Assembly: GCA_964464795.1 (NCBI GenBank)
Contig: CAYXHB010000002.1
Coordinates: 1 to 37,797 of the forward strand
DNA from: an uncultured Gammaproteobacteria bacterium
GTDB taxonomy: Bacteria; Patescibacteriota; Microgenomatia; CAYXHB01
Reading direction: 5' to 3'
DNA length: 37,797 nt
In this document: positions 74-23,725 of the stretch, one piece after another
Layout of the letters: every line of letters starts with the position of its first letter
Position numbering within the stretch: position 1 is the first letter of the stretch
Notes under the pieces: generated by a model
Told to the model about the DNA's origin: nothing
Databases searched by the model: none
The model's input: only the letters and a program-made list of their open reading frames with translations
Program-made: the position numbers and the translations under genes

Positions 74-99
74 GAGTCAAGGTAGCTACAGTTCAAAAT

Positions 100-9104: not shown

Positions 9105-10151
9105 ATGGTCAAGATTGGCATTAATGGATTTGGACGGATTGGAAGATTGGCGTTTCGGGTGGCGACACTAAATCATGCAAGTGATGCGGAAGTTGTGGCA
9201 ATCAACACATCAGGATCAATGACGGCAAGCGGATGGATGTCTTTGGTCAAGTATGACACCAACTACAAGCGTTATCCTCTGGAGATTAGCGCTGAAGATG
9301 TTAAAGACCCTAAGGACGTCACCGACGACGACCCATTGATTGGTTACATAATAGTTCAAGGCAAAAAATATCCGGTGCTGGCACAAAAAAATCCAGAAAA
9401 AATTCCCTGGGGGAAATATCAAACTGATGTGGTGATTGAATCAACTGGAGTATTTATTGATACCCAGGGCGCTTCTGGACATTTCCAAGGTGGAGCAAAG
9501 AAAGTAGTAATATCAGCTCCAGCCAAGGGCGATGATATTCCTACTTACGTGCTAGGAGTTAACCAAACAGGCGGGGAAAATATTATTTCAAATGCCTCAT
9601 GTACTACAAACTGTATTTCTCCAGTGGCTAAGGTGATTTTGAATGCTTTTGGGATTCAGAAAGCAATGATGACGACTGTGCATAGTTTTACAGATGACCA
9701 GAGGTTACACGACAACTCGCACAAAGACTTGCGACGCGCGCGGGCTGCTGGGCAAAATATCGTGCCAACTACAACTGGTGCGGCCAGCGCAACCGGGCTG
9801 GTTATGCCAGAGATGAAAGGAATTTTTGATGGGATTGCCATTCGGGTACCGACTCCTGCCGGTTCTGTATCCGACTTTGTATTTCTGACAGAAAGAGATA
9901 CTTCGGTTGAAGAAGTGAATAAAGTTTTGACCGCAGCTTCGGAGTCGGAGGAGTTTGCTGGAATTTTGGCAGTCACTAACGACCCGATTGTGTCATCTGA
10001 TGTGATAGGACAAACATATTCTGCCATAGTTGATTTAGAGTTTACTCAAGTCGTAGGCGGAAATATGGTGAAAGTCCTAGCCTGGTACGATAATGAATGG
10101 GGCTATACCAATAGGCTAGTTGAGCAAACAATTGTGGCGGGGAGGATGTAG
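9105..10151 (+). CDS. gap: Type I glyceraldehyde-3-phosphate dehydrogenase
   Basis: The ORF has the NAD-binding motif GINGFGRIGR, the catalytic SNASCTTNC, and WYDNEWGY near the C-terminus. I chose the start at MVKIGING (9105); the track ORF starts at 9096. Confidence 0.93.
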   Translation: MVKIGINGFGRIGRLAFRVATLNHASDAEVVAINTSGSMTASGWMSLVKYDTNYKRYPLEISAEDVKDPKDVTDDDPLIGYIIVQGKKYPVLAQKNPEKIPWGKYQTDVVIESTGVFIDTQGASGHFQGGAKKVVISAPAKGDDIPTYVLGVNQTGGENIISNASCTTNCISPVAKVILNAFGIQKAMMTTVHSFTDDQRLHDNSHKDLRRARAAGQNIVPTTTGAASATGLVMPEMKGIFDGIAIRVPTPAGSVSDFVFLTERDTSVEEVNKVLTAASESEEFAGILAVTNDPIVSSDVIGQTYSAIVDLEFTQVVGGNMVKVLAWYDNEWGYTNRLVEQTIVAGRM

Positions 10152-10191
10152 TTTTGTCTTTTGGATGATTGTTCGGTATGATGAATGGTAC

Positions 10192-10932
10192 ATGAACTTA
10201 TTCGGGAGGCTGATTAATTTTAAGCTGGTGATATTGGTACTGTTGATGGGGGGCTGGATATATACTAGCGGGCGGCCAATTGAAAAACCCCAATCACAGA
10301 GCATGGGAAGAAACCTGCCGGAGTTTGAAGCCATACATTCTCCTTATGCGGTGTTTTTTACCGAGGCGATTATTCCCAATAAATCTAACACTGTGGTACA
10401 GTTTCCTTACTACTTTGCGACTCCACATCAGCCGCTGTTTTTGACTCTACCTACCAATCCAGAAGCCGACGATGTAATAATCTTGGTTGACCATCCAATT
10501 ATAGAAATAGTAAAAACCTGGCCCAAAATTTCAAGTCGTAACTTAGTGTTATATCAGAGCAATCCAGTGTATGAAACAATTGACCAGTTTTTGGGAAATG
10601 TACCCAGCAGTGACGTTGTGGTAGCTGACTCAGCTTTAGTTTTCGGACAAGTCATCGCCCCGGAGAGTAATGTTATCCCTTTGAATGACTGGAATAGTGA
10701 AGCACCTTTTGAGTTTTTTTTAACGACTTATCATGAACCGACTGATAAGGGTCACTACAATTTATTTGAAACCAGGATAGACGCAAGTGAAGCTCTACTT
10801 AGAGAATGTCCGAATGAAGAACCTAACTGCCAACCAACATTAATGTGGAAGCTAGATATGCCAGATACGGACTTAGAGAATACTCTCTATATTGGCGAAA
10901 TTCACGTTGACTTCAGGCAGTCCCATCAATAG
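10192..10932 (+). CDS. Hypothetical membrane-anchored protein
   Basis: It has one N-terminal TM helix (FKLVILVLLMGGWIY) and then ~215 aa with no motif I recognise. The stop lies 6 nt before the glgA ATG. I chose the start at 10192 because the track start at 10120 overlaps the gap gene. Confidence 0.55.
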   Translation: MNLFGRLINFKLVILVLLMGGWIYTSGRPIEKPQSQSMGRNLPEFEAIHSPYAVFFTEAIIPNKSNTVVQFPYYFATPHQPLFLTLPTNPEADDVIILVDHPIIEIVKTWPKISSRNLVLYQSNPVYETIDQFLGNVPSSDVVVADSALVFGQVIAPESNVIPLNDWNSEAPFEFFLTTYHEPTDKGHYNLFETRIDASEALLRECPNEEPNCQPTLMWKLDMPDTDLENTLYIGEIHVDFRQSHQ

Positions 10933-12368: not shown

Positions 12369-12397
12369 TTGACAGGTTGAGGTTTTTTGCCTAATAT
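12369..12397 (+). promoter_or_regulatory. Candidate sigma70-type promoter of the surface cluster (TTGACA-17 nt-TAATAT)
   Basis: TTGACA lies at 12369-12374 and TAATAT at 12392-12397 with a 17-nt spacer. The -10 element ends about 35 nt upstream of the ATG at 12432. Confidence 0.45.
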
Positions 12398-12431
12398 CGA
12401 CTTAGGTTTAGCTATAATTTTTACATGAGCT

Positions 12432-13379
12432 ATGATTAAAAAGACTTTTCAGCTGGTTAGTTTATTTTTGTTTGTATTATTATTGCTTGGAGGGGTGGGG
12501 AAAGAAGTTTATGCCCAAGCTGGAAGGTCTTTGACTATCATTCCGCCCAAATTTGATGGGCTTTTTTCTAATCCAGGCGATACTTTGGTTGAACAAATCA
12601 GAGTGAGGAATGACTCTGATACACCAGTAACTTACGCTATCACAGTAGAAGACTTCACCACTAGTGGAGAAGAAGGCCAGGTCGTGCTTGAGGAAGGCGA
12701 GTCTGATTTGACATACTCGTTGGCTTCCTGGATAGAACTTGAAACACGCGACATCATATTGCAGCCAATGGAAGAAAAAGTGGTTACTTTTGTAGTTAAC
12801 GTACCTAGAAATGCGGAGCCTGGAGGGCATTATGCCTCTATTTTGTTTCAGTCCAGTGTTGACCAAGTCCCAGGGGGAGCAGCGGTCGCCCAAAGAGTTG
12901 GGTCTTTGGTGTTGTTGCGCGTGAGTGGAAACGTAGTTGAAGACGCAACCTTGGAAACTTTTTCTACTCCTAATTATCAGAAATCTGGTCCGATTACTTT
13001 TTCTTTGAGGGTTAAAAACGACGGAAATGTCCATGTGCAACCACAAGGAACAATTGTGATTAAGAATATGCTGGGCAGAAAAGTAGCAGAAATTCCCCTA
13101 GATAGCAGAAATGTACTTCCAGCTGCAGTAAGAAGGATGGATACAGTCTGGAATCAAGAGAGACTCTTGGGTCGATATACCGCTACCTTGATTGCGCAGT
13201 ATGGTGAAGGTGCGCAGAAGAAAACTCTAACTTCGGCTATTAACTTCACAGTTGCGTCTCCCATGGCCCTTACTTTGATTGCGGTTGGGGTTGTTGCCAC
13301 CCTGGGTTTCCTGTTCACTATGATTGCAGGATGGAAGAGAATGTCCAAGGCAATGCGGGTAATTGCGACTGGTAAATAA
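12432..13379 (+). CDS. Secreted Ig-like surface protein with a C-terminal TM anchor (architecture reminiscent of DUF916/DUF3324 proteins)
   Basis: The 315-aa ORF has a signal peptide ending VYAQA and two beta-rich segments (LVEQIRVRNDSDTPVTYAITVEDF; ITFSLRVKNDGNVHVQPQGTIVIKN). It also has PGGHYASILFQS, a C-terminal TM helix and a basic tail KRMSK. Confidence 0.6.
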   Translation: MIKKTFQLVSLFLFVLLLLGGVGKEVYAQAGRSLTIIPPKFDGLFSNPGDTLVEQIRVRNDSDTPVTYAITVEDFTTSGEEGQVVLEEGESDLTYSLASWIELETRDIILQPMEEKVVTFVVNVPRNAEPGGHYASILFQSSVDQVPGGAAVAQRVGSLVLLRVSGNVVEDATLETFSTPNYQKSGPITFSLRVKNDGNVHVQPQGTIVIKNMLGRKVAEIPLDSRNVLPAAVRRMDTVWNQERLLGRYTATLIAQYGEGAQKKTLTSAINFTVASPMALTLIAVGVVATLGFLFTMIAGWKRMSKAMRVIATGK

Positions 13380-13436
13380 TCTTTGTCTTTAGTTCTCCAC
13401 TGATTAGTTGTTAGAATGGATTATTGGTCTATTTTT

Positions 13437-14705
13437 ATGAATTTGAGTCGCAAGAAGATTATGATTTCATTTCGCAGTTTGGTTGGAGTTGGAACTACAA
13501 TTATTTTTTTGATGGCTTTGACGGTAGGCGGATGGGGAAACGTAACAACGACTTCCGCAGTGGGAAACTTGGAGGCGATGAAAGACATTATCGGAAGCGC
13601 CATTCCTGGGGCTGGAAATGTGTCGCACGAAATATCGTTTCGCTTGCCTTTTAATTCCTTACACATAGCCACCAGCGATTACATCATCATTGACATGGGA
13701 AATTTCTCTAATGTAACGGAGGCAAATCAAGTCACCGGTATATACGGAGGAACGCCTGTTTTTAGTCTAGATGGCAGTGAAGTAAAAATTACAGGGATAT
13801 TAGTGGAATCAGGTATACAATTAACTATTTCAGGCATAACTGCCACTAATCCAGGCTCGCCAATGTTGTATGGAGTAACGGTGATTGTTTCGGAAGACGA
13901 GGATGGGATGTTGATTAAAAATGTAGGGACTGTCTTGGCAAGCGGTACAGACGGATCGGTAAGCGTGACCGCGTCTATTGACCCTCCCGTGGCTTCGTTG
14001 GCAGTTTCTGGATACACATCTCCCGGGACATTTGTGACTTTTACTAATAACGGCACAGTGATTGGAACCGATACTGCAGGTCCGAGTGGTTTTTTTAGTC
14101 AGATTTTTACTGGACTACAACCCATGACACACATGTTAAGAATATATGGCATAGATCAACAAGGACGAGCAACTGCTCCGTTTTTTTTGGAGATATATAC
14201 ACCAATCTATCAACTAACCACGGTTACTGATATTATCCTGCCACCGACTATCCAGCTAAGCGACACTGTAGTGTTACAAGGCAATCACTTAGTAGTCAGC
14301 GGGTCTGCAGTCCCATCAGGAGATCTCAGTTTGTTTACGGAGTCGCCGATGCGGAGTTACTCTACTACTGTGAACCCATTAGGAAATTGGGCATATACCA
14401 TAACTGACACGGCTGATTATTTGCCTGGGGATTACCGGGCTTATTCAATAGTGCAAGATGGGTCTTTGCAGAGTCTGGCTGGGATTGCATTAGGGTTTAG
14501 TGTAACGGCTCTGGCGACTACACCAACTCCGGCTAATTGCAATATATCCCAAGGGGATCTTAATTGTGATACTAATGTGAATTTATTTGACTTTAGTATT
14601 CTCATGTATTATTGGGGAACCACTCAACCGGCAGGAGATATCAACGGCGACGGTGTGGTCAACTTATTTGATTTCAGTATCATGATGTACTACTGGGGAA
14701 CCTAG
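13437..14705 (+). CDS. Secreted protein with a C-terminal dockerin-type double repeat
   Basis: The N-terminal signal anchor is LVGVGTTIIFLMAL. A beta-rich body of ~370 aa shows no enzyme motif. A Thr/Pro linker (ATTPTPAN) precedes two 23-aa EF-hand-like dockerin segments, GDLNCDTNVNLFDFSILMYYWGT and GDINGDGVVNLFDFSIMMYYWGT. Confidence 0.8.
   Translation: MNLSRKKIMISFRSLVGVGTTIIFLMALTVGGWGNVTTTSAVGNLEAMKDIIGSAIPGAGNVSHEISFRLPFNSLHIATSDYIIIDMGNFSNVTEANQVTGIYGGTPVFSLDGSEVKITGILVESGIQLTISGITATNPGSPMLYGVTVIVSEDEDGMLIKNVGTVLASGTDGSVSVTASIDPPVASLAVSGYTSPGTFVTFTNNGTVIGTDTAGPSGFFSQIFTGLQPMTHMLRIYGIDQQGRATAPFFLEIYTPIYQLTTVTDIILPPTIQLSDTVVLQGNHLVVSGSAVPSGDLSLFTESPMRSYSTTVNPLGNWAYTITDTADYLPGDYRAYSIVQDGSLQSLAGIALGFSVTALATTPTPANCNISQGDLNCDTNVNLFDFSILMYYWGTTQPAGDINGDGVVNLFDFSIMMYYWGT
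14553..14702 (+). repeat. Tandem coding duplication encoding the two dockerin Ca-binding segments
   Basis: Two 69-nt units (14553-14621 and 14634-14702) are separated by 12 nt. The encoded peptides are identical at most positions. Confidence 0.8.
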
Positions 14706-14780
14706 AGCAAAAACAAAAACAGATTGCATGATTGCAAGGTAATTTGGTACGCTTGAGAGTAGTTATTATTTTTATGTGGT

Positions 14781-16490
14781 ATGGCAAGGACGAAAAAATC
14801 TCTCAGTTCAAACACGCATAAAGGCGGCAGTTTCTATCGAAGACTAAAACCGGTAAAAAGAAGTACCAACAGTGGTCGTAGACTCCAGAAAGACGACCAG
14901 CCGTATCATAAGCTGTTGGATGACTTGAGAGAAGAATTAACTAGTAAGTTTGAGTCTGACTTGGAGGAAACTTTGCAGCAGGCCGCTGAGGAATTCCGCA
15001 AACAAGATAAACCCCAAAGACACAATCACGGTGAGTACGAAACAGATGAGGATGACTACCACAGACAACACAAACACCCATCTTGGCCGTGGGAAACCGT
15101 GGCTAAATCTCCCCACCACCAGAGAAGGACTGATGAAAGAGAAAGGGAAAACCCAGAGAATGATTGGAGAGAGTTAACTCGGTATCGTCCTGAGCCTGAA
15201 TACGTGCCAGAGCCAAAAGCGCCAAGGAGAGAACGGCGGGTAGAACCTGCTTTCGTCTCATCGTCTGACAAGTATAGAAGTGATGTGAGTCCTAGGCGTG
15301 AAGTAGATCCAAGCTACGAAGTTCGGCCTGTGGAGGTGGAAAAAATACCTCGTAAAGAAGAGAAAAACTGGGACTCTGAAATTGAAGCGCTGAAAGATAA
15401 GATGGCTTTTTTGGAAAAAGAACTTTTGGCCTCATATCAACGTGAAGGCAGCTTGAAGAATAATGTCGAGAAACTGGAGCAAGAGTTATCTTCACGACAA
15501 GCTGGATTGAGAGATCAGCTTGATAGTTTGAAAAATAATGTAGCCGCTCCAGCCGTAGTGGCGGCGGCGAAAGAAGAAAACAAGTTGACATCTCTATCAA
15601 TGCAACTGACTCAAGTGATGCAGTCAATGAATACTATGCTTGACGAAGAGCCGCCTGCAGTTGATACAAAAACCGACCAGCCCAAACCCATCGCCGTGGA
15701 CGAGGTGGCCGAACAAGCCGAAAAATCCAAAGATACTGAGAAAAGCAAAGAAGAAAAAAAAACTGAAGAAAAAGACAAAGTAAAAACAGATGGAAAAGGC
15801 AAAAAGAAAAAAGTGCTCTGGCTATTTGCATCCATACTATTAGTTTTGGGCGGGGTGGGAGTGGGAATGTTCTTTTTCATGAATGGACAGACTGAGGTTG
15901 ACCCTGAACTAGTTAGGAACTATCTGCCGGAAGCTGAGCAGCCTGCCCCTGAGCAGTCTATGTTGCCGAATGAAGAAATTGTGGCTGATGCTGACAGCGG
16001 ATCGGTTCAGGGAGCCGCTACCAGTACTTCACCGCCTGGAAATAATAACTTCGAGCAAGCTCATGCTGATGTCGCGTATGGTGAGACACGCTGGGATACG
16101 CACAAAAACCCCCAATTGGGGGTTCAATTTGATTATCCTAGTAATTCAGCCAATGTGGTCAGGACAGATACCAGCGTGACTGTGCTACGTAAAACTGGAT
16201 ATATTTTTAAGATTCAGCACATTGAGACAGCTCTGGATTTGGACGACTACTGGAACCAGATAAAAGCCCGCAATTTAATGCATCGGGTTAGCGAAACTAC
16301 ATTTCGCGACTTGCCGGCTCTTTTTTTGGAACTTGATGACCAGACTGATTATCCAGGTAACCGGTATTTAGTGAAAAGAGGAGAGAACAGGATATATGAT
16401 ATTTGGTTTGCAACAACCTCAGCAAACTTATCGGATGATGACGCCAAAAGAATTGATATTATTTTGAATTCATTTAAGTTTATTGAATAG
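14781..16490 (+). CDS. Bitopic membrane protein with a long charged, coiled-coil cytoplasmic N-terminal region and an extracytoplasmic C-terminal domain
   Basis: The ORF is 569 aa. Residues 1-344 are rich in K/R/E/D/H/P, with a heptad-like stretch (EIEALKDKMAFLEKELL..VEKLEQEL) and a KSKDTEKSKEEKKTEEKDKVK tract. A single TM helix VLWLFASILLVLGGVGVGMFFFM is encoded at 15813-15881, followed by a ~200-aa outer domain. Confidence 0.75.
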   Translation: MARTKKSLSSNTHKGGSFYRRLKPVKRSTNSGRRLQKDDQPYHKLLDDLREELTSKFESDLEETLQQAAEEFRKQDKPQRHNHGEYETDEDDYHRQHKHPSWPWETVAKSPHHQRRTDERERENPENDWRELTRYRPEPEYVPEPKAPRRERRVEPAFVSSSDKYRSDVSPRREVDPSYEVRPVEVEKIPRKEEKNWDSEIEALKDKMAFLEKELLASYQREGSLKNNVEKLEQELSSRQAGLRDQLDSLKNNVAAPAVVAAAKEENKLTSLSMQLTQVMQSMNTMLDEEPPAVDTKTDQPKPIAVDEVAEQAEKSKDTEKSKEEKKTEEKDKVKTDGKGKKKKVLWLFASILLVLGGVGVGMFFFMNGQTEVDPELVRNYLPEAEQPAPEQSMLPNEEIVADADSGSVQGAATSTSPPGNNNFEQAHADVAYGETRWDTHKNPQLGVQFDYPSNSANVVRTDTSVTVLRKTGYIFKIQHIETALDLDDYWNQIKARNLMHRVSETTFRDLPALFLELDDQTDYPGNRYLVKRGENRIYDIWFATTSANLSDDDAKRIDIILNSFKFIE

Positions 16491-16517
16491 TTGAGCTTTG
16501 ATATATAATTTGAGGGA

Positions 16518-17039
16518 ATGAATAAGTTGCAGATAGGGTTAGTAATTTTAATCTTAGTTTCATTTGGAGGCATTTTCTGGCTATATGGTCCCAGAGAAAG
16601 AGTTTTCGGAATATCTACCGCTGGATCAGGGAGTTATGAAATTGAGATACCAGAGAGAGTCAGTGCGGCAGATCCTTTCGTAATTAAGGTAATTGTTGAT
16701 ACAAAAGGAAAAAACGTCAACGCAGTGGGTTTGAATTTGAAGTTCGCAACTAATCGTTTGCAGATTCTAAATATGGATACTACCGGGTCATTTTGTGAGT
16801 TCTATCCTGAGAATCGTTATGATAACCAAAACGGACTTATCAAGATTTCGTGCGGGCTACCGTCCCCTGGGTTTAATGGTAAGGGGACTTTGGCTGAAAT
16901 TACGTTTGAGGCTCTCAGTGTGGGGATAGCAGATATTGAAATCCTACCTGATAGTTTAATCTTGCTTAATGACGGCAAAGGAACGAATATCTTAAAAGAA
17001 TATGCTGCTGAGGAAATTCTGGTGGTGGCTAATTTGTAA
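16518..17039 (+). CDS. Membrane-anchored cohesin-like domain protein
   Basis: The 173-aa ORF has an N-terminal TM helix (IGLVILILVSFGGIFWLYG). A ~140-aa module follows the cohesin pattern: FVIKVIVDTKGKNVNAVGLNLKFATNRLQILN, NGLIKISCG and GKGTLAEITFEALSVGIADIEI. Confidence 0.6.
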   Translation: MNKLQIGLVILILVSFGGIFWLYGPRERVFGISTAGSGSYEIEIPERVSAADPFVIKVIVDTKGKNVNAVGLNLKFATNRLQILNMDTTGSFCEFYPENRYDNQNGLIKISCGLPSPGFNGKGTLAEITFEALSVGIADIEILPDSLILLNDGKGTNILKEYAAEEILVVANL

Positions 17040-17068
17040 GTGAACAGAAAAAACATTAGCTTGTGAAA

Positions 17069-17170
17069 ACCAGATTGCCCACGGCATGCTGCCATGGCGT
17101 GCACATGCACAAATTGATATGAAAAAACTATGGATAATTTGTGCTCGCCTCGATTCGAGTCGAGATGACG
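17069..17170 (+). repeat. Copy B of the ~100-nt multi-hairpin intergenic repeat
   Basis: It carries ACCAGATTGCCC (17069-17080), GCACATGCACAAATT (17101-17115) and TGGATAATTTGTG (17131-17143). A 9-bp stem pairs GCACAAATT (17107-17115) with AATTTGTGC (17136-17144). Between blocks 1 and 2 lies a hairpin whose sequence differs from the one in copy A. Confidence 0.65.
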
Positions 17171-17205
17171 GGAAATGGAGTGGAGGAGGTAGTGAATACA
17201 GAAAA

Positions 17206-17240
17206 GATCCTTCGTCCGTCAGCTGACGGATCGAAATGAC
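17206..17240. repeat. REP-like element with a perfect 16-bp palindrome
   Basis: TCCGTCAGCTGACGGA (17215-17230) is a perfect palindrome. It is flanked by GATCCTTCG and TCGAAATGAC; the GTCAT head reads on the opposite strand. Confidence 0.55.
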
Positions 17241-17314
17241 AAAAGAGAAGGGCAAGAACAATTCCATGTTTGTATTGAGGCGAGGTAGGCAATTCGTGTA
17301 AAGTGGAATTGTAT

Positions 17315-18739
17315 ATGGTTAAAGTTGGTCTTTATCTATTTGGATTGCTGTTGTCGTGTGTGTGGATGGGAGTAAACGCAGGGGATGTGCAGGCTCAGGC
17401 GAGGTTTTATATAGAAGGGGAGCAGGTTGTGGTAGTCGGCGAAACTTATAAGTATCATGTGTTCTTGGACAACACGAGTGGTGACTCGTCAATTAATGTG
17501 GTTCAGGCGACGGTTTCGATTCCTGGAAACTTTGGACAGGTTAAGGCTATATTCGCCGCTCCAGATGGATCAATTACAGGACTGTGTCTTATGAGTGTCG
17601 CACCACAGCCTGGAACTTCGGGTAAACCTCCACCTAATAACCAACAAACAACCCCATATTTTTATAATAATAATTATGTAAGCGCCTGTAATATAAATTC
17701 TCCCCTTGGAGGTAGAATTTATCTGGGTACGATGGAGCTTAATGCTAACACCCCAGGGGTCGTTTATCTTGCATTTAGCTCAACGGCTAACTATAACCTC
17801 GCGATTAAGCCAGAGCCACCATTCACTGTAGGTCTTGATATCTCATATTCACATGAAATTACTATTCTAGGTGCTGGCACACCAATGCCAACATATAGCT
17901 TAAGCGGAAAGATTCTACTGGATAGCAGTGGGTTGGACAATGTCACGGTAACTGCGGGTTCTAAATCTGCCCAAACAAATTCGTCTGGCAACTACACTAT
18001 CAATGGTCTGCTTCCTGGAAATTACAATGTAGTTCCTACGAAATCTGGATATACATTCACTCCACCCAATTATCCAGTAATAGTCACCTCTGTAAATATC
18101 GGTGATATAGACTTCATGGCAATAGCAAACCCGACAGCAGTGCCTACAGTAACACCAGCACCAACCTCGATACCTACTGGTGGCAGTGGCCAGTCATACT
18201 CACTGAGCGCGGACGATGTGAACTTTGTGAACGTGCAGCCTTTACCCACTCCGATTCCGGGTGATAATAGTCCACTGGAAGTCGTGGAGGAAGACAACAC
18301 CGTGCCTCCGCCGCCAGGTGATATTACACCCCGACCTCCGGCGACACCTTTTCCGACTCCTGATCCCAACGCAGTAGGCGGAGGTGGGGGTGACGATGGC
18401 GAGGTTTTATCGGTACAGTCTATCCGTGACCTACTTATTCCCGGCAAATCCAGAGCTGATAAAAATGTGGTGTTATTTAATTTTGTGTCGTTGCTGACTT
18501 TGTTAACGATCATCATTGTCATCATTTGGAGAATCATAATGTTGAAGCGGAAAAATAAGCTCAAACAAGAACATATCAGCGATTTAATTAATGGCGAATT
18601 GGCTGCCTTGGAAACTAAACTATCTGTATTGAATGAAAAAGACGGAGCTAAGTCGTTCCAAGCTGAGTTTGAGCAGACGGTTGACCATATACAGCAGGAG
18701 CTGTTGCTTAATAAGAAAGTCAAACAAGCGCCGGGTTAA
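17315..18739 (+). CDS. Scaffoldin-like anchored surface protein: cohesin-like N-domain, CarboxypepD_reg-like domain, Pro/Thr-rich linker, TM helix and cytoplasmic tail
   Basis: The signal peptide ends VQAQA. The N-terminal module has cohesin-like spacing (YKYHVFLDNT..INVVQATVSIPGNF..GRIYLGTMELNANTPGVVYLAF). SGKILLDSSGLDNVTVTAGSKSAQTNSSGNYTINGLLPGNYNVVPTKSGYTF matches the carboxypeptidase-regulatory-like fold pattern. A linker (PTAVPTVTPAPTSIPT, PPPPGDITPRPPATPFPTPDP) precedes the TM helix LLTLLTIIIVIIW and a ~70-aa charged tail. I chose the start at ATG 17315; the track uses GTG 17303. Confidence 0.65.
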   Translation: MVKVGLYLFGLLLSCVWMGVNAGDVQAQARFYIEGEQVVVVGETYKYHVFLDNTSGDSSINVVQATVSIPGNFGQVKAIFAAPDGSITGLCLMSVAPQPGTSGKPPPNNQQTTPYFYNNNYVSACNINSPLGGRIYLGTMELNANTPGVVYLAFSSTANYNLAIKPEPPFTVGLDISYSHEITILGAGTPMPTYSLSGKILLDSSGLDNVTVTAGSKSAQTNSSGNYTINGLLPGNYNVVPTKSGYTFTPPNYPVIVTSVNIGDIDFMAIANPTAVPTVTPAPTSIPTGGSGQSYSLSADDVNFVNVQPLPTPIPGDNSPLEVVEEDNTVPPPPGDITPRPPATPFPTPDPNAVGGGGGDDGEVLSVQSIRDLLIPGKSRADKNVVLFNFVSLLTLLTIIIVIIWRIIMLKRKNKLKQEHISDLINGELAALETKLSVLNEKDGAKSFQAEFEQTVDHIQQELLLNKKVKQAPG

Positions 18740-18770
18740 CCTCTTGAGTGTTACTGATACAATAAAACAA

Positions 18771-19871
18771 ATGATGAGCTTAAAGCGAGCGGGAGTTATT
18801 ACTTTGGTTGTGTTCAGTTTGTTCATGAGCGGATGCGGACTAAACACTTCTTCGATAACTGAAACGGGAATAGATGAAGAGATAGATCAGGGTGGACATC
18901 ATAATTTAGACAATCTCATGAAGAGCGGGAGTCTGATTGCGGTGAGACAATCTAGTCGCCTGCTGTTATTAAATCCAGAGACGAAAGAGTTCTCTGCTGT
19001 TTATGAACTTGGTGAAAATGAAATTCCTTTGGGTAATGAGTTATTTGATTTTGTGGTCTCTAAATCGGGCAAATGGATTGTCTGGTATACTGCTAATAAA
19101 GGATTACTGGTGTTGGATGTGGAAGCTGGAGAATCTGCGCTTGTGGCGGAAGCGAGTGATTGGGTGAATAGAAATCCTTACTTTGAGTTGGATGAAGATG
19201 ACTTACTTTATTGGATTGGAGACGATGGAGCAATTTTGAACAAGTTTGACCTGGAAACGAAAGAAAAACAAGCAATCCCTATTCCCTACCCGTTTGGGAA
19301 TATTTTTCGGGTGGCACCAAATAAAGAAAGATTTCTCTACATTACCGGATATAGCGATAACGCACAGCGGCCGCGGTTTATGTTTTCAGATAGGCAAGGA
19401 AATTTGCAGTCGACCTTTGCTTCGCAAGTCGAGTTATCAAGCAGATTTAATGTCGTCTGGACTCCGGACAGTCGTGGAGTGATAACTCTGTTTGACGGGC
19501 AGGCATGGATTTATCCTTATGAGAATCCAGAGAGTCCTACTCCATTTGTAACTCTTAGTCACGCTGAGGCCAGAGATATTACTCGGTCGGGAGATGAAAT
19601 ATTTATACTTGATTCACAAGGGTACTGGCATAAATACGACTATGAAAGCAGAAAAGAGCTGGCAAGAATTCCCACAGATATCGCCCGCGAGTTACGCCGT
19701 CCACAGTTTCATCCTTGGGGCGAGGATATGTTGTTAATAAATGAGATTTCCCAAAACGAAGAAAACAGATTCCAAAGACTATGGCTATCTAACTATAGAG
19801 GACAAAAAACTATGGTTTTGGCTCAATTTGGGGAGGCGACAGTAGGGGATTTTTCGCTACAATTGGATTAA
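18771..19871 (+). CDS. Lipoprotein, probably a TolB-like beta-propeller
   Basis: I chose the start at MMSLKRAGVITLVVFSLFMSGC, which has a lipobox-like SGC, after the stop of the previous gene. Repeated strand-turn motifs (WIVWYTANKGLLVLDVEAGE, LLYWIGDDGAILNKFDLETKE, VVWTPDSRGVITLFDG) resemble PD40-type blades. Confidence 0.6.
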   Translation: MMSLKRAGVITLVVFSLFMSGCGLNTSSITETGIDEEIDQGGHHNLDNLMKSGSLIAVRQSSRLLLLNPETKEFSAVYELGENEIPLGNELFDFVVSKSGKWIVWYTANKGLLVLDVEAGESALVAEASDWVNRNPYFELDEDDLLYWIGDDGAILNKFDLETKEKQAIPIPYPFGNIFRVAPNKERFLYITGYSDNAQRPRFMFSDRQGNLQSTFASQVELSSRFNVVWTPDSRGVITLFDGQAWIYPYENPESPTPFVTLSHAEARDITRSGDEIFILDSQGYWHKYDYESRKELARIPTDIARELRRPQFHPWGEDMLLINEISQNEENRFQRLWLSNYRGQKTMVLAQFGEATVGDFSLQLD

Positions 19872-19879
19872 AGACTAAA

Positions 19880-21439
19880 ATGAAATTTAGAAATATAAAA
19901 TTTGTCCAATTCCTGATGTGGGTAGTTGGAATTGCTTTATTTGTTGTTGCTTGGTGGATGAGTTTGATCATCTGGCCTGATTATGGTGAACCGTTTACTT
20001 ATGATCAGGCTCGTGATTTACTTGAGACTCGAGAACTGGTCCAAGGGCGGGATATTAAACTTCTTGGTCCAACAACCAGTATCAACGGGGTGCACTTGGG
20101 GCCTGTATATTATTATCTTTTATTACCTGGAATTTGGGTAGGAGGCGGCGATCCTCAGAGTGTACTTGATTGGCAAGTAAGTTTGTTCTTTATAAGCTGC
20201 ATAGGCTTATTTATCTGGGCAATGCGGAATAAAGATTGGGCGGTGATTTTGACAGCCTTAGTGATTGGCACGATGCCTGTAACAACTAGGTCAAGTCACT
20301 ATTTCTGGAATGCGCATTTTATGCTAACCAGCATGATTTGGCTTATCTGGATTTGGAAACTCGCCTCTAAAAATCAAAAAACTTGGTTATGGATTGGAGT
20401 AGGAATGGTATCGGGAGTTTGTTTACAAATGGAATCGGCTCTGGGCATAGTAGTTTTTCCAGCAATTATTATTAGGTTGTGGATGAAAAAATGGAAAAGT
20501 ACAATTAGATGGGTGATTGTGGGATTTGGTATCACTTTAATTCCACAAATTGTGTATGAGCTAACCCATGGAATGCAAATGAGTAAGTTACTCTTGCATG
20601 AGATAAACGGACAAGGTGTGCTAGGAGACCAAATCAACAACTGGAGTGACTTAATCCAAGACCGTTGGAGAATGTTAGTGAGTGTATTTATCTCGAGCTT
20701 TTCATTGCCTCCGGCATGGAGTTTAGGAGTGTTCGTGAGTTTGCTTTGGTTAGGATGGTGGGGAAGAAAAAAAGGCAAGGGCAAAAGTGAGATTGGGGTT
20801 CCAGGATTAATTTGGGTATTGGCAATAGCTCTTTACCTTGTTTATCCGTATCAACTCAAGCATTGGTATACATATGGATTGTGCGTGATACTCATGTGGG
20901 GATTCTGGGAATGGGTGGTTGGGAGTGGATATAAAAAGAGCGTGGTGGTGGGAGTTGGGATAGCTTTAATTTTATTTGCTAATGGACTGATTGAAGCGGA
21001 TAAATTTAAGCAATCTGCTGAAGCGATAAGTCTTGAAAACCCGAGTAGTTTAGTAAATCAAATAGAGGTAATAAAGGCTGCAGATAGTTTTTGTGGTGAC
21101 GATGACTATGCAATCCACACATTAGTTCCTGGGATTTATGATTATTCATATCAATACTTGGTTTGGTGGATGGGTAAGGAAGGACAAATTAGGCTCCCTT
21201 CTGTGATGAGCTATGAACCAGGCGTGCCTGCTTACGTTCCCAACTATGATAGCTTGTCGTGGAGTAACTCGTCAGATGAAACTAAAAATGTATGTGTAAT
21301 TATTGAGCCTGGGACGGAAAATTTGCAGCCTGGGTGGGAAGGGAGAATTGGTCTTGGTTGTGTGAGTGAAGAGAAAGTTTTTAATTTCGGAACCAGGGTG
21401 GAAAAACGCGTTAGTTGCGAGACGGAAAATGAAGTTTAA
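19880..21439 (+). CDS. Polytopic membrane protein, GT-C-type (ArnT/PMT_2-like) glycosyltransferase candidate
   Basis: The 519-aa ORF has about 12 hydrophobic helices and then a ~130-aa soluble C-terminus. The first external loop is acidic (YGEPFTYDQARDLLETRE). The start lies 8 nt after the lipoprotein gene stop. Confidence 0.5.
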   Translation: MKFRNIKFVQFLMWVVGIALFVVAWWMSLIIWPDYGEPFTYDQARDLLETRELVQGRDIKLLGPTTSINGVHLGPVYYYLLLPGIWVGGGDPQSVLDWQVSLFFISCIGLFIWAMRNKDWAVILTALVIGTMPVTTRSSHYFWNAHFMLTSMIWLIWIWKLASKNQKTWLWIGVGMVSGVCLQMESALGIVVFPAIIIRLWMKKWKSTIRWVIVGFGITLIPQIVYELTHGMQMSKLLLHEINGQGVLGDQINNWSDLIQDRWRMLVSVFISSFSLPPAWSLGVFVSLLWLGWWGRKKGKGKSEIGVPGLIWVLAIALYLVYPYQLKHWYTYGLCVILMWGFWEWVVGSGYKKSVVVGVGIALILFANGLIEADKFKQSAEAISLENPSSLVNQIEVIKAADSFCGDDDYAIHTLVPGIYDYSYQYLVWWMGKEGQIRLPSVMSYEPGVPAYVPNYDSLSWSNSSDETKNVCVIIEPGTENLQPGWEGRIGLGCVSEEKVFNFGTRVEKRVSCETENEV

Positions 21440-21466: not shown

Positions 21467-23725
21467 TTAGTAGTCGATTGAGGACGTTTGATTTAGCATC
21501 TCTTGAGCTGGAGTGAAGTCTGGATTGTATTTAAGGATATACTCTAATTCCTGGCGGCTTTCGTTTAGATATCCGCCCTCGTAGTAAAGTTTGGCCAGCT
21601 CAAATCTGATGCCCGGCGATTGCGGATCGCGGAAAACTGCTTTGAGGAGAGTTTTGTAAGATTGGTTGAGTAACTCTGTGTCTAAACTGGCCTCACTGGC
21701 TGCCAATTCAGTTTGAGATTGTTTAAGAATTTCTTCAGCTGTGGGACTGATGCTTCCTGGGGCATAGAGTTCACCAGGGAGATCTTCAACCCCGGCAAGC
21801 AATTGGCGCGGTTGGGAAAATTGGGAGTTTAACTGGATGGCCAACTCCAGATGATAGCGGGCTTCAGTCAAATATCCTAGTTTCCCGTACAAAAAGCCGA
21901 GACTGAGATGCTTGTAAGCAAAATAATCTTTTAGTCCGGATTGGAAATAGTTTTTGGCTGGGGGAGAACTTTGGGAAAGAGTTTCTGACACCCAGTACTC
22001 TTGTTGGTTATCGGCAAGTGTGTCGGGAACTTGAGTTGTGACTTGGTATAAGTAACCTCTGGGAATGAGATAGAATGGATTAGCGTCAAACCCCATATAT
22101 TGACTGTAATATCCGTCTGGTTCAGAGAGGTATGTGGTTCGTTGACTGGCATTCCAACTGATTATGTCACTGGCAAAGAAGGGATTGTAAGAGTAAGGAT
22201 AACCTTGATATTGAGGGTTCTGGATTAAGAAATATTGGCGGTAATGGTTGTTTTTGAGTAGAACCGTGACGTCAGGGCGGTAGTCTTCAACAAGCTGTTC
22301 GTAAAGCAGACTGTAACATGAGATATCAGAGAAACAGATGATGACTGATTCTGGCTCGGCTGTGTCTAACATGCTTCGAGCGTAATCTTTGAGGAAGGTA
22401 TTGTCTGACTGGTTGGCGGTGAGGTAGTTGGCTTGGACTTGGTAAACTATTGAACCAACGATAACTAAAGAAAGCAGAATGTAGGAAGAGTTAGATTTGA
22501 GTTTGGAAGAGTTGTTGGATGACAAAAACCTGATAAGCCCGACCACGCTGATAACGGTTAACAAACCAAAGCTAATGTGACCAAGCTGGTACTGTCTATG
22601 TGAGATACCAATTCCAAGTCTGTAGTCTAAGCTTTCAGGAGAGTCCTCTGGCACACCCATATACACTCCGAACAGGAAACCTGAAACCAGCCAGAAACTA
22701 AAGGCAGTGATGAGTATCTGTTTGGGAAGGGTTCTCCAGCTGGCGGTTAATCCAATGACAGTGAGAGCTATGGCTGGCCAGGTAATTTGTTCAAACATAA
22801 ATTTAATATAGGCGACTGCCCCATTCAGGTAGAAACCTGGAGATTTGAAGTCTATGTATGCTGAGACAACCATCTCTTTATCCAAGATGGCACCGCTATA
22901 GTCCCGTCTGAAAATCAACCTCCACCAACCGTCAAAACTCTGGTCAAATACCCATGACATTGTTACTTGACGGCTGTTTAGCCAAAAAAGCAGAAGATTG
23001 GGAAGAAGCCAAAAGAGGAAAAGAACAGCCGTGCCTGGCAAAATGAGCTTGGGAAAAACTTGGGTCTTCCAGAAGTAAAACTTGGAGTGAAAAAATACCG
23101 CGCAGGTAGCAACCATGACTCCTGGGACAAGAAGGATAAAAGTGTGGACTGTCGACAGTCCCAAGCCCACACTGAGCCAGGCGATTAACCACCATTTCAA
23201 TGAGCCAAGGCGAGAGTCAGGTGTGATGCTAAGTTGCCATTTGATAACGGAAAGAAAAAGCAATCCGGCAAATAAGTTGTTGAGAGCGCCTACTTCAATA
23301 ATACCCCCGTAAAGCCAAAAAATAGCCGAGAAAGTCAAAAGCAGACTGGCAATAATTGGCAAAAGAGCCACGGAACGGTGACTTTCCGAAGAGCGCATAT
23401 GTTGAGCCAATGTATAGGCACAAAGAGCGACTAGCCCAACGGTGAAAGCGTGAGTAACCATGGCAAGAAGATTTGAACGGAAAGCAATCGAGGCAGCCAG
23501 GGGAATGAGAGAGAATAACTTAGATACAATTACCACCAAGGGGTATCCGGAAGGATGAGCCACTCCTAATAAATGGGCAATCGTGATAACTTCATCTGAG
23601 TCCCCGTAGCCGATGTTAGTTCTAGGGGCGGTTTGGTAATAAGCGAAGAAAGAAATCAAAACTACAAGCAGAATCGTAAAGATGGCGAATTTATGATTAC
23701 TTAGAAGATTGGTGACTGACTTCAT
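21467..23725 (-). CDS. DUF2723/TMEM260-like polytopic protein with C-terminal TPR repeats (putative protein O-glycosyltransferase)
   Basis: The 752-aa ORF has the N-terminal signature NIGYGDSDEVITIAHLLGVAHPSGYPL and many TM helices. The C-terminus has TPR-like repeats (LGFLYGKLGYLTEARYHLELAIQLN; LAKLYYEGGYLNESRQELEYILKYNP). Confidence 0.8.
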   Translation of the reverse strand: MKSVTNLLSNHKFAIFTILLVVLISFFAYYQTAPRTNIGYGDSDEVITIAHLLGVAHPSGYPLVVIVSKLFSLIPLAASIAFRSNLLAMVTHAFTVGLVALCAYTLAQHMRSSESHRSVALLPIIASLLLTFSAIFWLYGGIIEVGALNNLFAGLLFLSVIKWQLSITPDSRLGSLKWWLIAWLSVGLGLSTVHTFILLVPGVMVATCAVFFHSKFYFWKTQVFPKLILPGTAVLFLFWLLPNLLLFWLNSRQVTMSWVFDQSFDGWWRLIFRRDYSGAILDKEMVVSAYIDFKSPGFYLNGAVAYIKFMFEQITWPAIALTVIGLTASWRTLPKQILITAFSFWLVSGFLFGVYMGVPEDSPESLDYRLGIGISHRQYQLGHISFGLLTVISVVGLIRFLSSNNSSKLKSNSSYILLSLVIVGSIVYQVQANYLTANQSDNTFLKDYARSMLDTAEPESVIICFSDISCYSLLYEQLVEDYRPDVTVLLKNNHYRQYFLIQNPQYQGYPYSYNPFFASDIISWNASQRTTYLSEPDGYYSQYMGFDANPFYLIPRGYLYQVTTQVPDTLADNQQEYWVSETLSQSSPPAKNYFQSGLKDYFAYKHLSLGFLYGKLGYLTEARYHLELAIQLNSQFSQPRQLLAGVEDLPGELYAPGSISPTAEEILKQSQTELAASEASLDTELLNQSYKTLLKAVFRDPQSPGIRFELAKLYYEGGYLNESRQELEYILKYNPDFTPAQEMLNQTSSIDY

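What the first reader, a model, noticed from the sequence alone, without database searches (positions are those of the whole stretch)
12369..21439. Cohesin-dockerin surface cluster with membrane anchors on both partners and a glycosyltransferase in the same operon
Seven + strand genes (12432-21439) are separated by 8-75 nt, except for one 275-nt gap that holds a structured repeat. Every product has a signal peptide, lipobox or TM anchor. The 13437-14705 product ends in two dockerin-type Ca-binding segments but shows no recognisable catalytic domain. The 16518-17039 product and the N-terminus of the 17315-18739 product look like cohesin beta-sandwiches. The latter adds a CarboxypepD_reg-like domain, a Pro/Thr-rich linker, a TM helix and a ~70-aa cytoplasmic tail. 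The set also has an Ig-like anchored protein, a bitopic protein with a 344-aa charged cytoplasmic arm, a propeller-like lipoprotein and a GT-C enzyme. Non-cellulosomal cohesin/dockerin modules are known to be widespread but are mostly of unknown function. Here the putative partners and anchors are encoded side by side. That suggests a self-assembling, possibly glycosylated, cell-surface complex, for example for attachment to a host cell or substrate in an episymbiotic lifestyle. The function is inference.
Basis: partly seen in the sequence, partly recalled or inferred. Interest (0 to 1): 0.75.

Follow-up and report, generated by a model that had tools for sequence, protein, structure and literature searches.

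The report
Conserved cohesin-dockerin surface module in Patescibacteria
This gene cluster encodes a secreted, non-enzymatic Ig-repeat protein with a dockerin tail beside two membrane-anchored cohesin proteins and a WxLIP-like anchor, and the same trio recurs across the ultra-small Patescibacteria, pointing to an undescribed way these cells hold proteins on their surface.

Summary
Seven + strand genes (12432-21439) all encode exported or membrane proteins. p2 ends in a canonical two-segment dockerin that passes Pfam's threshold. p4 is a cohesin: its AlphaFold model (pLDDT 93.8) matches solved cohesins at TM 0.82. The p5 N-terminus is a diverged cohesin homologous to p4 (hhalign 98.5%). p1 is a two-domain WxLIP homolog.

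The main new result is synteny. Seeding on the cohesin, 61 of 79 species-level Patescibacterial loci carry a dockerin gene within 10 kb, always on the same strand (median gap 42 nt). Seeding on the dockerin protein, 56 of 63 informative metagenome loci have a cohesin gene downstream and 43 of 48 have a WxLIP-like gene upstream.

Three corrections:
- The dockerin protein has a cleavable-type signal peptide and no anchor, so only the cohesin side is anchored.
- The GT-C gene p7 occurs in no relative.
- The cluster really starts upstream at about 10192, with glgA inserted into it.

No p2-type protein has a catalytic domain, so this is not a cellulosome. Binding and biological role remain untested. 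I found no prior description in the literature I could search. I classify it as a new variant of a known kind.

The parts
10192..10932 (+). u270: N-terminally anchored protein of about 246 aa and unknown fold. It is a conserved first gene of the cluster and lies outside the finding's coordinates.
   Evidence: It has a homolog directly upstream of the p1-type gene in all five independent loci (blastp E 1e-97 to 2e-11). It has no Pfam hit. glgA (10939-12330) sits between it and p1 only in the window, L001 and L003; L008, L005 and L007 lack glgA there.
12369..12397 (+). Promoter-like site (TTGACA-17-TAATAT) upstream of p1.
   Evidence: This is the best consensus match in the region at 10 of 12 positions. 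It is a consensus match only, and the promoter type of this phylum was not verified.
12432..13379 (+). p1: WxLIP-like protein with a signal peptide, two Ig-like domains and a C-terminal TM helix (aa 269-301).
   Evidence: Pfam WxLIP_PGBD scores 31 bits against a cut-off of 27.3, and 22 of 29 family members hit it. The family profile aligns to solved EfmWxLIP1 (9i25/9i1y) over both domains, E 6.5e-6. A p1-type gene lies upstream of the dockerin gene in 43 of 48 informative loci.
13437..14705 (+). p2: secreted Ig-repeat protein (Big_6/Big_13-like) with no catalytic domain and a C-terminal dockerin.
   Evidence: Across 42 p2-type proteins, 41 have Dockerin_1, 26 have Big_6, 14 have Big_13 and none has an enzyme domain. 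The family profile hits only dockerins and a Bap Ig domain in the PDB. Signal-peptide-like N-termini end in AxA motifs. None of 59 has a C-terminal TM.
14553..14702 (+). Dockerin module of p2 (aa 373-422). Its two near-identical segments are GDLNCDTNVNLFDFSILMYYW and GDINGDGVVNLFDFSIMMYYW.
   Evidence: Dockerin_1 is above the gathering score. phmmer hits solved type I dockerins 5nrk and 2yik. The tail is conserved across lineages. Ca-ligand positions D1, N3, D5, N9 and D12 can be read directly from the sequence.
14781..16490 (+). p3: bitopic protein with a charged cytoplasmic arm of about 342 aa containing a coiled-coil-like stretch, a TM at aa 343-370, and a conserved ectodomain of about 200 aa with unknown fold.
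   Evidence: The TM is. The ectodomain is conserved in L005 and L007 at a different position in the cluster and is found in 17 of 79 loci. Only a weak PsbP_2 hit (E 0.05) and no PDB match.
16518..17039 (+). p4: minimal anchored cohesin, with an N-terminal TM helix (aa 3-23) and a single cohesin module (aa 38-170; nt 16629-17027).
   Evidence: The AF2 model has pLDDT 93.8. The top 35 Foldseek PDB matches are all cohesins, the best being 2vo8 (E 1.4e-8, TM 0.82, rmsd 2.7 A). The direct Pfam Cohesin score is sub-threshold (20.9 against 24.1), but relatives score above it in the homologous region. The domain family has 7941 representative clusters.
17315..18739 (+). p5: stalked anchored cohesin. 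It has a signal peptide, a diverged cohesin (aa 28-185; nt 17396-17869), a CarboxypepD_reg-like insert (aa 197-247), a Pro/Thr linker, a conserved juxtamembrane segment, a TM (aa 383-412) and a helical cytoplasmic tail.
   Evidence: hhalign against the p4 family gives probability 98.5%, E 1.9e-15. The top Foldseek hits of the model are cohesins 2vo8, 2w1n and 2jh2 (N-domain pLDDT about 70-87). The insert is absent from all 9 other family members. The juxtamembrane segment, TM and tail are the most conserved part.
18774..19871 (+). p6: lipoprotein, possibly a beta-propeller. It is conserved only in the closest clade.
   Evidence: It has an invariant lipobox Cys21. Propeller hits are only sub-threshold (PD40, NUP159, DPPIV_N; PDB 3ott, 4av8). 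It is present in 13 of 79 loci.
19880..21439 (+). p7: polytopic GT-C-type (PMT_2-like) membrane protein. It is a lineage-specific neighbour, not a conserved cluster member.
   Evidence: Its own PMT_2 hit is sub-threshold (18.6 against 26.1). Of 29 family members, 12 hit PMT_2, best E 7e-14. D42, R45 and D46 are invariant. It has no homolog in the syntenic loci and p7-type genes occur in 0 of 79 loci.
21467..25941 (-). Two convergent TMEM260-like GT-C genes (21467-23725, which has TPR repeats, and 23722-25941). They are a clade-specific conserved neighbour of the cluster.
   Evidence: PF11028 scores 87.7 and 79.4 bits against a cut-off of 24.2. They occupy the same position in L001, L003 and L008 and in 14 of 79 loci, all from the closest clade plus L064.

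Best explanation
The window carries one instance of a gene module that is conserved across Patescibacteria and anchors proteins at the cell surface. Its order is WxLIP-like anchor (p1), then secreted dockerin protein (p2), then one or more membrane-anchored cohesin proteins (p4, p5).

Proposed mechanism:
1. p2 is exported by Sec and its signal peptide is cleaved.
2. Its C-terminal Ca-binding dockerin then docks non-covalently onto a cohesin module.
3. One candidate cohesin is on p4, held directly at the membrane by an N-terminal TM helix. The other is on p5, displayed at the end of a long Pro/Thr stalk that is fixed by a C-terminal TM helix and a cytoplasmic helical tail.
4. This holds a variable, non-catalytic Ig-repeat protein on the surface of a wall-bearing cell.
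5. p1 is a second membrane-anchored Ig-like component. By analogy with Firmicute WxLIP it probably contacts the wall or p2.
6. u270, p3 and p6 are accessory membrane components found in the clade of this genome.

What is shown: the domain identities, the topologies and the conserved adjacency. What is inferred: the p2-p4/p5 binding, which of the two cohesins is the partner, and the biological role. The likely role is a conserved anchoring platform for a variable adhesin-like or envelope protein. The system is not a cellulosome.
For: Domain identities:
- The dockerin passes Pfam's cut-off and matches solved dockerins.
- p4 has a cohesin fold with TM 0.82 to 2vo8.
- Homologs of p4 score above Pfam's Cohesin cut-off.
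- The p5 N-terminus is homologous to p4 and has cohesin top hits.

Synteny:
- Five independent loci share the gene order.
- Seeded on the cohesin, 61 of 79 species-level loci have a dockerin ORF within 10 kb. All 59 dockerin ORFs are on the same strand as the nearest cohesin ORF, with a median gap of 42 nt.
- Seeded on the dockerin protein, 56 of 63 loci have a cohesin downstream and 43 of 48 have a p1-type gene upstream.
- In distant loci, 20 of 45 partner ORFs independently hit Pfam Cohesin.

Topological complementarity:
- None of 59 dockerin proteins has a C-terminal TM, and 50 have an N-terminal hydrophobic segment; a sample shows AxA-type cleavage motifs.
- Cohesin proteins have either an N-terminal anchor (58) or a C-terminal TM (77).

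Other support:
- Small proteins carrying both a cohesin and a dockerin occur in L069, L076, L084 and L086, as expected in a true cohesin-dockerin network.
- The dockerin tail DFSI(L/M)(L/M)(Y/F)xW is far more conserved than the body of p2.
- No catalytic domain appears in 42 p2-type proteins.
Against:
- p4 itself is below Pfam's Cohesin cut-off (20.9 against 24.1), and no p5-family member hits Cohesin directly.
- The evidence does not tell which cohesin is the partner. The NDGKGT hallmark of p4 is absent from p5, and it is present in only 36 of 59 of the cohesin ORFs nearest to a dockerin.
- The loci were chosen by pattern scans and only the best 80 hits were kept, so the frequencies are not unbiased genome-wide rates.
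- Signal-peptide cleavage is judged from motifs, not from a trained predictor.
- The essential dockerin protein of the cultivated Saccharibacterium Southlakia (SEML1_0315) is not in such a module, so no genetic evidence carries over.
Confidence: 0.62

Rival explanations
1. This is a WxL-type complex in disguise. The functional pair is p1 (WxLIP) with p2, as WxLIP binds WxL-domain proteins in Firmicutes. The dockerin and cohesins would then serve another purpose, for example binding wall glycan or proteins encoded elsewhere.
For: p1 is a true two-domain WxLIP homolog with a C-terminal TM. It almost always lies immediately upstream of p2 (43 of 48 loci). In Firmicutes WxLIP is proposed to bind its neighbouring WxL proteins (PMC10599100).
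Against: No cluster protein hits the WxL domain model at E <= 1. The p2 and p4 family profiles do not hit the WxL chains deposited with WxLIP in the PDB. This reading does not explain why cohesin genes follow the dockerin gene in 89% of loci. The two readings are not mutually exclusive.
Confidence: 0.15
2. This is a cellulosome-like nutrient-capture device. The complex would hold polysaccharide-binding or polysaccharide-degrading functions at the surface, linked to the surrounding starch and glycogen genes.
For: In this clade the cluster lies among glgA, a branching enzyme, amylases, GH57 and GT4 genes. Cohesin-dockerin pairs are best known from cellulosomes.
Against: No catalytic domain or CBM is found in 42 p2-type proteins. 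Each cohesin protein has a single cohesin, so there is no multi-cohesin scaffoldin. The glycogen genes encode cytoplasmic enzymes, and they are absent from the distant loci that keep the module.
Confidence: 0.07
3. This is a housekeeping envelope scaffold or S-layer-type lattice rather than an adhesin. p2 would form, or tether, a regular surface layer held by p4 and p5, and p3 and p5 would couple it to the cytoplasm.
For: The module is conserved across the phylum, and the dockerin and cohesin motifs are highly conserved, which is unlike fast-evolving host-specific adhesins. The cytoplasmic tail of p5 and the cytoplasmic arm of p3 are conserved. There is a weak similarity of p5 to an anammox S-layer glycoprotein, but only through the CarboxypepD_reg insert. 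GT-C O-mannosyltransferase-like genes lie adjacent in this clade.
Against: The body of p2 is small and highly variable (about 200 to 1267 aa, 25% mean column identity). That fits a variable exposed ligand better than a lattice protein. There is no evidence for self-assembly.
Confidence: 0.25

Closest known systems
Single-cohesin anchoring proteins of cellulosome producers (e.g. Clostridium thermocellum OlpA/OlpC; Coh-OlpC-dockerin complex, PDB 4dh2)
   Same: One cohesin module on a cell-bound protein captures a dockerin-bearing secreted protein. The p4 model superposes on these cohesins (4dh2 is among the hits). The dockerin has two duplicated Ca-binding segments.
   Different: Anchoring here is by a TM helix, not SLH repeats. 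The cargo is a non-catalytic Ig-repeat protein. There is no scaffoldin, CBM or enzyme. The partners are encoded adjacently as a fixed module across a phylum.
Non-cellulosomal cohesin-dockerin pairs of Clostridium perfringens glycoside hydrolases (PDB 2vo8, 2jh2, 2w1n, 2o4e)
   Same: These are the best structural matches for both p4 and the p5 N-terminus. They show cohesin-dockerin used for protein-protein assembly outside cellulose degradation.
   Different: In C. perfringens the modules join secreted enzymes or toxins to each other. Here one partner is an integral membrane protein and the other has no enzyme domain.
WxL / Csc cell-surface clusters of Firmicutes (WxLIP = DUF916 + DUF3324 + TM helix; PMC10599100, PMC1534035)
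   Same: p1 is a homolog of WxLIP with the same three-part architecture. Both systems are operons of several surface proteins thought to form a non-covalent surface complex.
   Different: No WxL-domain protein is present. Its place next to WxLIP is taken by a dockerin protein followed by cohesin proteins.
Eukaryotic TMEM132 adhesion molecules (cohesin + Ig domains + TM + cytoplasmic tail; PMC6030884)
   Same: The domain logic matches p5: an extracellular cohesin-like module with Ig-like domain(s), a single TM and a cytoplasmic tail.
   Different: This is only an architectural analogy. No homology beyond the fold was tested, and no dockerin partner is known for TMEM132.

Membership tests
Cohesin (Pfam PF00963) | Score above the Pfam gathering threshold | tested here: not met
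   p4 scores 20.9 bits against 24.1. Six of 9 close homologs have sub-threshold hits. No p5-family member hits. Multidomain homologs of the p4 domain do pass, in the homologous region: P0027 at 124 bits, P0087 at 69 bits, P0072 at 40 bits. In distant loci 20 of 45 partner ORFs hit at E <= 0.01.
Cohesin (Pfam PF00963) | Nine-stranded beta-sandwich (jelly-roll) fold that superposes on solved cohesins | tested here: met
   For p4, the model has pLDDT 93.8 and the top 35 PDB hits are all cohesins, with TM up to 0.82 and rmsd 2.7 A. For the p5 N-domain, the top hits are cohesins (TM 0.71 to 2vo8) from a medium-confidence model, and hhalign to the p4 family gives 98.5%.
Cohesin (Pfam PF00963) | Binds a dockerin module in a Ca-dependent manner | not testable with these tools
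   No multimer prediction or experiment was possible. The only support is conserved adjacency with a dockerin gene.
Dockerin type I (Pfam PF00404) | Score above the Pfam gathering threshold | tested here: met
   p2 scores 30.1 bits against 22.9 at aa 373-417. Of 42 p2-type proteins, 41 hit Dockerin_1.
Dockerin type I (Pfam PF00404) | Two duplicated segments of about 22 residues, each an EF-hand-like Ca loop (D-x-N-x-D-x3-N-x2-D) followed by a helix | tested here: met
   DLNCDTNVNLFD-FSILMYYW and DINGDGVVNLFD-FSIMMYYW can be read directly from the sequence. Both align to both segments of solved dockerins 5nrk and 2y3n.
WxLIP (WxL-interacting protein; PF06030 + PF11797 + TM helix) | N-terminal PGBD (DUF916) domain | tested here: met
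   p1 scores 31 bits against 27.3. Of 29 family members, 22 hit.
WxLIP (WxL-interacting protein; PF06030 + PF11797 + TM helix) | Second Ig-like HBD (DUF3324) domain, followed by a C-terminal TM helix | tested here: inconclusive
   PF11797 is hit by only 1 of 29 members. However, the family profile aligns to solved EfmWxLIP1 across residues 23-252, which covers both domains. The C-terminal TM is present in p1 (aa 269-301) and in 37 of 42 p1-type proteins.
WxL cluster (PMC10599100 definition: at least 1 WxLIP plus at least 2 WxL proteins within 4 genes) | Adjacent WxL-domain proteins | tested here: not met
   No WxL-domain hit in any of the seven proteins at E <= 1, nor in the neighbours scanned at E <= 0.01.
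Cellulosome | Dockerin-bearing carbohydrate-active enzymes plus a scaffoldin with multiple cohesins and a CBM | tested here: not met
   There is no catalytic domain or CBM in p2 or in 42 p2-type proteins. p4 and p5 each carry one cohesin.
GT-C glycosyltransferase, PMT_2-like (p7) | PMT_2 (PF13231) above threshold; polytopic topology with a conserved acidic motif in the first extracytoplasmic loop | tested here: inconclusive
   p7 scores 18.6 bits against 26.1. Of 29 family members, 12 hit PMT_2, best E 7e-14. D42, R45 and D46 are invariant. Several TM segments are predicted. There is no PDB sequence match and no relation to the TMEM260-like pair.

The most novel reading that the evidence does not exclude
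Patescibacteria may use a dedicated, phylum-wide cohesin-dockerin system as a general way to hold secreted proteins on the cell. It would consist of membrane-anchored cohesins plus a WxLIP-like partner, and would be a functional counterpart of sortase/LPXTG or SLH anchoring in other monoderms. The variable Ig-repeat cargo (p2) would be the exposed element that mediates attachment to hosts or substrates. If so, the conserved dockerin tail DFSI(L/M)(L/M)(Y/F)xW would be a sequence tag that identifies the surface-displayed proteome of these uncultivated bacteria.
Probability: 0.35. Interest if true: 0.8.

Novelty: new variant of a known kind. Interest (0 to 1): 0.66.

Why it matters
Most Patescibacteria (CPR) are uncultivated, depend on hosts and have very small genomes. 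How they build their envelope and attach to partners is largely unknown.

A compact module found in many of their lineages gives a concrete hypothesis that can be tested with recombinant proteins. The module pairs a secreted dockerin protein with membrane-anchored cohesins and a WxLIP-like protein. It would also give a sequence tag for finding other displayed proteins.

It extends cohesin-dockerin biology to a non-enzymatic, membrane-anchored, operon-encoded form. It also links that biology to the WxLIP family, which has so far been discussed only in Firmicutes.

Tried and rejected
1. Direct sequence searches of p4, p5 and the p4 family profile against PDB sequences found no cohesin. Only fold comparison and transitive homology made the link.
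2. The lead from cultivated Saccharibacteria failed. The essential 'dockerin' protein SEML1_0315 of Southlakia is a 927-aa gene standing alone between a hydrolase gene and a tRNA, not part of this kind of module.
3. Literature searches for cohesin or dockerin together with Patescibacteria, CPR, Saccharibacteria, Parcubacteria or Microgenomates returned only cellulosome surveys or unrelated papers.
4. The 275-nt gap is not a decayed copy of the extra cohesin gene that sits at this position in L003 and L013 (tblastn found nothing). It has no Rfam match, and its fold is only marginally stable (z = -2.3).
5. p7 is not related to the neighbouring TMEM260-like GT-C pair (hhalign probability 0.8%).
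6. The ectodomains of p3 and p6 could not be assigned.
7. I tried the NDGKGT motif as a way to decide whether p4 or p5 is the partner. Its presence in the genome loci is circular, because it was part of the seed pattern, and it does not discriminate (36 against 23).
8. The 73-sequence alignment was too diverse for the locus scan, so I used the 9-sequence alignment instead.

Full report
**1. Observation**

The seven + strand ORFs exist as described, with intergenic gaps of 57, 75, 27, 275, 34 and 8 nt. A hydropathy scan shows:
- p1: N-terminal signal-like segment and a C-terminal TM (aa 269-301).
- p2: N-terminal hydrophobic segment only.
- p3: one TM (aa 343-370) after a Lys/Glu/Arg-rich arm.
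- p4: N-terminal TM.
- p5: signal-like segment and a TM (aa 383-412).
- p6: LFMSGC lipobox.
- p7: several TM segments.

The window has no tRNA and no Rfam match. The flanking genes are PGK, GAPDH and glycogen synthase upstream. Downstream lie two convergent TMEM260-like GT-C genes, a branching enzyme, an amylase, GT4 and GH57. Source names attached to homologs place the organism in the Patescibacteria.

**2. Domain identities**

*Dockerin.* p2 aa 373-417 scores 30.1 bits against Pfam Dockerin_1 (cut-off 22.9). It aligns to both segments of solved type I dockerins. The two segments, GDLNCDTNVNLFDFSILMYYW and GDINGDGVVNLFDFSIMMYYW, have the canonical Ca-ligand spacing.

*Cohesin, p4.* The direct Pfam score is below threshold (20.9 against 24.1), and PDB sequence searches found nothing. 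An exhaustive profile search showed that the p4 domain belongs to a large family of 7941 representative clusters. Multidomain members of that family score well above Pfam's Cohesin cut-off in the homologous region. With a 73-sequence alignment the AF2 model has pLDDT 93.8. Its 35 best PDB matches are all cohesins, the best being 2vo8 (TM 0.82, rmsd 2.7 A).

*Cohesin, p5.* No family member hits Pfam Cohesin. Profile-profile comparison with the p4 family gives probability 98.5% and E 1.9e-15 over aa 28-163. The model's N-domain has cohesins as its top PDB matches. An ortholog in L007 also hits p4 by plain blastp (E 4e-13).

*Rest of p5.* The CarboxypepD_reg-like segment (31.8 bits against 32.3) is an insertion found only in this genome's copy. 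The best-conserved part of the family is the juxtamembrane segment, TM and helical tail.

*p1.* It passes the WxLIP_PGBD (DUF916) cut-off. Its family profile aligns to the solved E. faecium WxLIP1 structure over both Ig-like domains (E 6.5e-6). Together with the C-terminal TM this reproduces the WxLIP architecture described in PMC10599100.

*p6.* It has an invariant lipobox Cys and only scattered sub-threshold propeller hits.

*p7.* It is GT-C through its family only. Of 29 members, 12 hit PMT_2, and a D42/R45/D46 motif is invariant.

*p3.* The ectodomain could not be assigned.

**3. Synteny in close relatives**

Contigs carrying homologs of p4 or p5 share the window's gene order. blastp shows three things:
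- The ORF at about 10192-10932 (u270) has a homolog immediately upstream of the p1-type gene in all five independent loci. The cluster therefore starts outside the finding's coordinates, and glgA is an insertion in a subset of genomes.
- The p3 ectodomain is conserved in the distant loci, but after p5.
- p7 has no counterpart in any locus.

**4. Synteny across the phylum**

I scanned one genome per species with p4-family patterns. This returned 79 loci from many Patescibacterial lineages: Microgenomates, Parcubacteria/Paceibacterota, Berkelbacteria, CPR2, WWE3, Uhr-, Woese-, Shapiro-, Kerfeld-, Jorgensen-, Lipton-, Magasanik-, Giovannoni-, Falkow- and Kaiserbacteria. Using HMMs built from the six syntenic loci:
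- 61 of 79 loci have a dockerin ORF within 10 kb, 45 have the p2 body, 33 have p1, 26 have the p5 C-terminus, 17 have the p3 ectodomain and 13 have p6.
- The usual order is p1, then dockerin protein, then cohesin protein(s).
- All 59 dockerin ORFs are on the same strand as the nearest cohesin ORF. The median gap is 42 nt, and 36 gaps are 150 nt or less.
- Independent Pfam scans confirm Dockerin_1 in 41 of 42 p2-type proteins and Cohesin in 20 of 45 distant partner ORFs.

The first scan was seeded on the cohesin, so I ran the reciprocal test on metagenome contigs, seeded on the p2 family (pattern DFSI[ML][ML][YF]xW; more than 600 matching stretches). Of 63 loci with at least 700 nt downstream, 56 have a cohesin ORF. 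Of 48 loci with at least 1 kb upstream, 43 have a p1-type ORF.

**5. Topological logic**

Across the 79 loci:
- None of the 59 dockerin proteins has a C-terminal TM, and 50 have only an N-terminal hydrophobic segment.
- Cohesin proteins fall into a p4-type with an N-terminal anchor only (58 proteins, median 229 aa) and a p5-type with a C-terminal TM (77 proteins).
- 37 of 42 p1-type proteins have a C-terminal TM.

In a sample of each type, p2-type and p1-type N-termini end in AxA-like signal-peptidase motifs, and the mature p2 starts at (V/A)GNL. p4-type hydrophobic segments are followed by charged residues with no such motif.

The dockerin partner is therefore most likely released from the membrane and retained only by protein-protein contacts. 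This corrects 'anchors on both partners'. Small proteins carrying both a cohesin and a dockerin occur in several loci, as would be expected in a real cohesin-dockerin network.

**6. What it is not**

No p2-type protein has a catalytic domain or CBM; they carry Big_6, Big_13 and other Ig-like domains. Each cohesin protein in the window has one cohesin. This is therefore not a cellulosome.

No WxL-domain protein is present, so it does not meet the published definition of a WxL cluster.

The glycosyltransferase link is weak. p7-type genes occur in 0 of 79 loci, and the TMEM260-like pair occurs in 14 of 79, all from the closest clade plus L064.

**7. The 275-nt gap**

The gap has a few short hairpins (z = -2.3). 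It is not a remnant of the extra cohesin gene found at this position in L003 and L013. It holds one copy (17066-17150) of an element of about 85 nt that also occurs at window 97-178 (77% identity). The shared core is CACAAATT-N20-AATTTGTG. There are two copies in the window against 0.01 expected by chance, and none in 87 related loci. Its folds are not significant.

**8. Mechanism and confidence**

I consider it shown that:
- The module encodes a dockerin, two cohesins and a WxLIP homolog.
- They have complementary export and anchor topologies.
- Their adjacency is conserved across a phylum.

I infer (confidence about 0.6) that the p2 dockerin binds p4 and/or p5 and that this displays p2 on the cell. 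The biological role is open: an adhesin platform or an envelope scaffold. A conserved tail on a variable body favours a conserved anchoring platform for a variable exposed protein.

**9. Novelty**

Non-cellulosomal cohesins and dockerins are known to be widespread (my own knowledge; see also PMC6030884 and the C. perfringens structures 2vo8 and 2jh2). NCBI already names one p4 homolog 'cohesin domain-containing protein'.

I found no description of this conserved WxLIP-dockerin-cohesin module in Patescibacteria in the held literature. That library does not include most subscription journals.

I classify the finding as a new variant of a known kind.

Noticed in passing
window 10192-10932 (ORF listed as 10120-10932), with glgA at 10939-12330: A TM-anchored protein of about 246 aa and unknown fold is conserved immediately upstream of the WxLIP-like gene in all five syntenic loci. 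It is therefore part of the cluster. The glycogen synthase gene sits between it and p1 only in the window, L001 and L003.
   Followed up: partly
window 97-178 and 17066-17150: A dispersed intergenic repeat of about 85 nt (77% identity, E 3e-8). Its conserved core is the inverted repeat CACAAATT-N20-AATTTGTG. There are two copies in the window against 0.01 expected, and none in 87 related loci. The predicted folds are not significantly stable. It could be an operator-like site or a small mobile element.
   Followed up: partly
window 17903-18055 (p5 aa 197-247): The CarboxypepD_reg-like domain of p5 is an insertion present only in this genome's copy. All nine other family members go straight from the cohesin to the Pro/Thr linker.
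   Followed up: yes
L003 10617-11351, and L013 (244-aa ORF): Some relatives carry an extra 244-aa protein (signal peptide, p5-type cohesin, C-terminal TM) between the p4 and p5 orthologs. This is exactly where the window has its 275-nt gap. The gap shows no trace of that gene.
   Followed up: yes
L069, L076, L084 and L086 (ORFs of about 250 aa); L052 (540 aa): These small proteins carry both a cohesin and a dockerin, which makes them adaptor-like. They suggest chained cohesin-dockerin assemblies in some Parcubacteria-type lineages.
   Followed up: no
L034, L036, L037, L039, L043, L044, L047, L048, L054, L055, L058-L060, L064, L074 (dockerin ORFs of about 110-350 aa): This is a sub-family of small dockerin proteins. 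They have only one canonical dockerin segment, usually CD(L/V)N.D..C(N/D)L.DFS(I/V)LLYY, preceded by an EF-hand-like helix such as FDIDGDGxIxxxE. Each is followed directly by a cohesin protein of about 300-360 aa.
   Followed up: no
L035 2850-4286 and 8390-9928: In one Uhrbacteria locus, a p1-type ORF and a cohesin-type ORF share an N-terminal segment of about 180 aa (63% identity). The segment gives strong hits to 23S_rRNA_IVP and bAvd-like families. It may be a repeated insertion, or an artefact of my longest-ORF calling.
   Followed up: partly
p4 aa 93 and 112; p2 aa 367 and 377 (window 16794-16796, 16851-16853; 14535-14537, 14565-14567): There are conserved cysteine pairs. C93 and C112 of the p4 cohesin are invariant in 9 close homologs and at least 90% conserved in 73. 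In the six closest orthologs a pair brackets the first Ca loop of the dockerin (C-x-I-S-x-G-D-L-N-C). Both pairs probably form disulfides.
   Followed up: no
window 21467-25941 (- strand): Two paralogous TMEM260-like GT-C genes, one with C-terminal TPR repeats, converge on the cluster. This pair is kept at the same position throughout the closest clade (14 of 79 loci). It may O-glycosylate the Ig-like domains or Pro/Thr linkers, but this was not tested.
   Followed up: partly
L009-L011, L014-L021, L029, L031 and other record titles: Many MAG records that carry this clearly Patescibacterial module are titled 'uncultured Gammaproteobacteria' or 'uncultured Pseudomonadales' (TPA_asm assemblies). 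The record taxonomy looks unreliable, so I did not use these labels.
   Followed up: no
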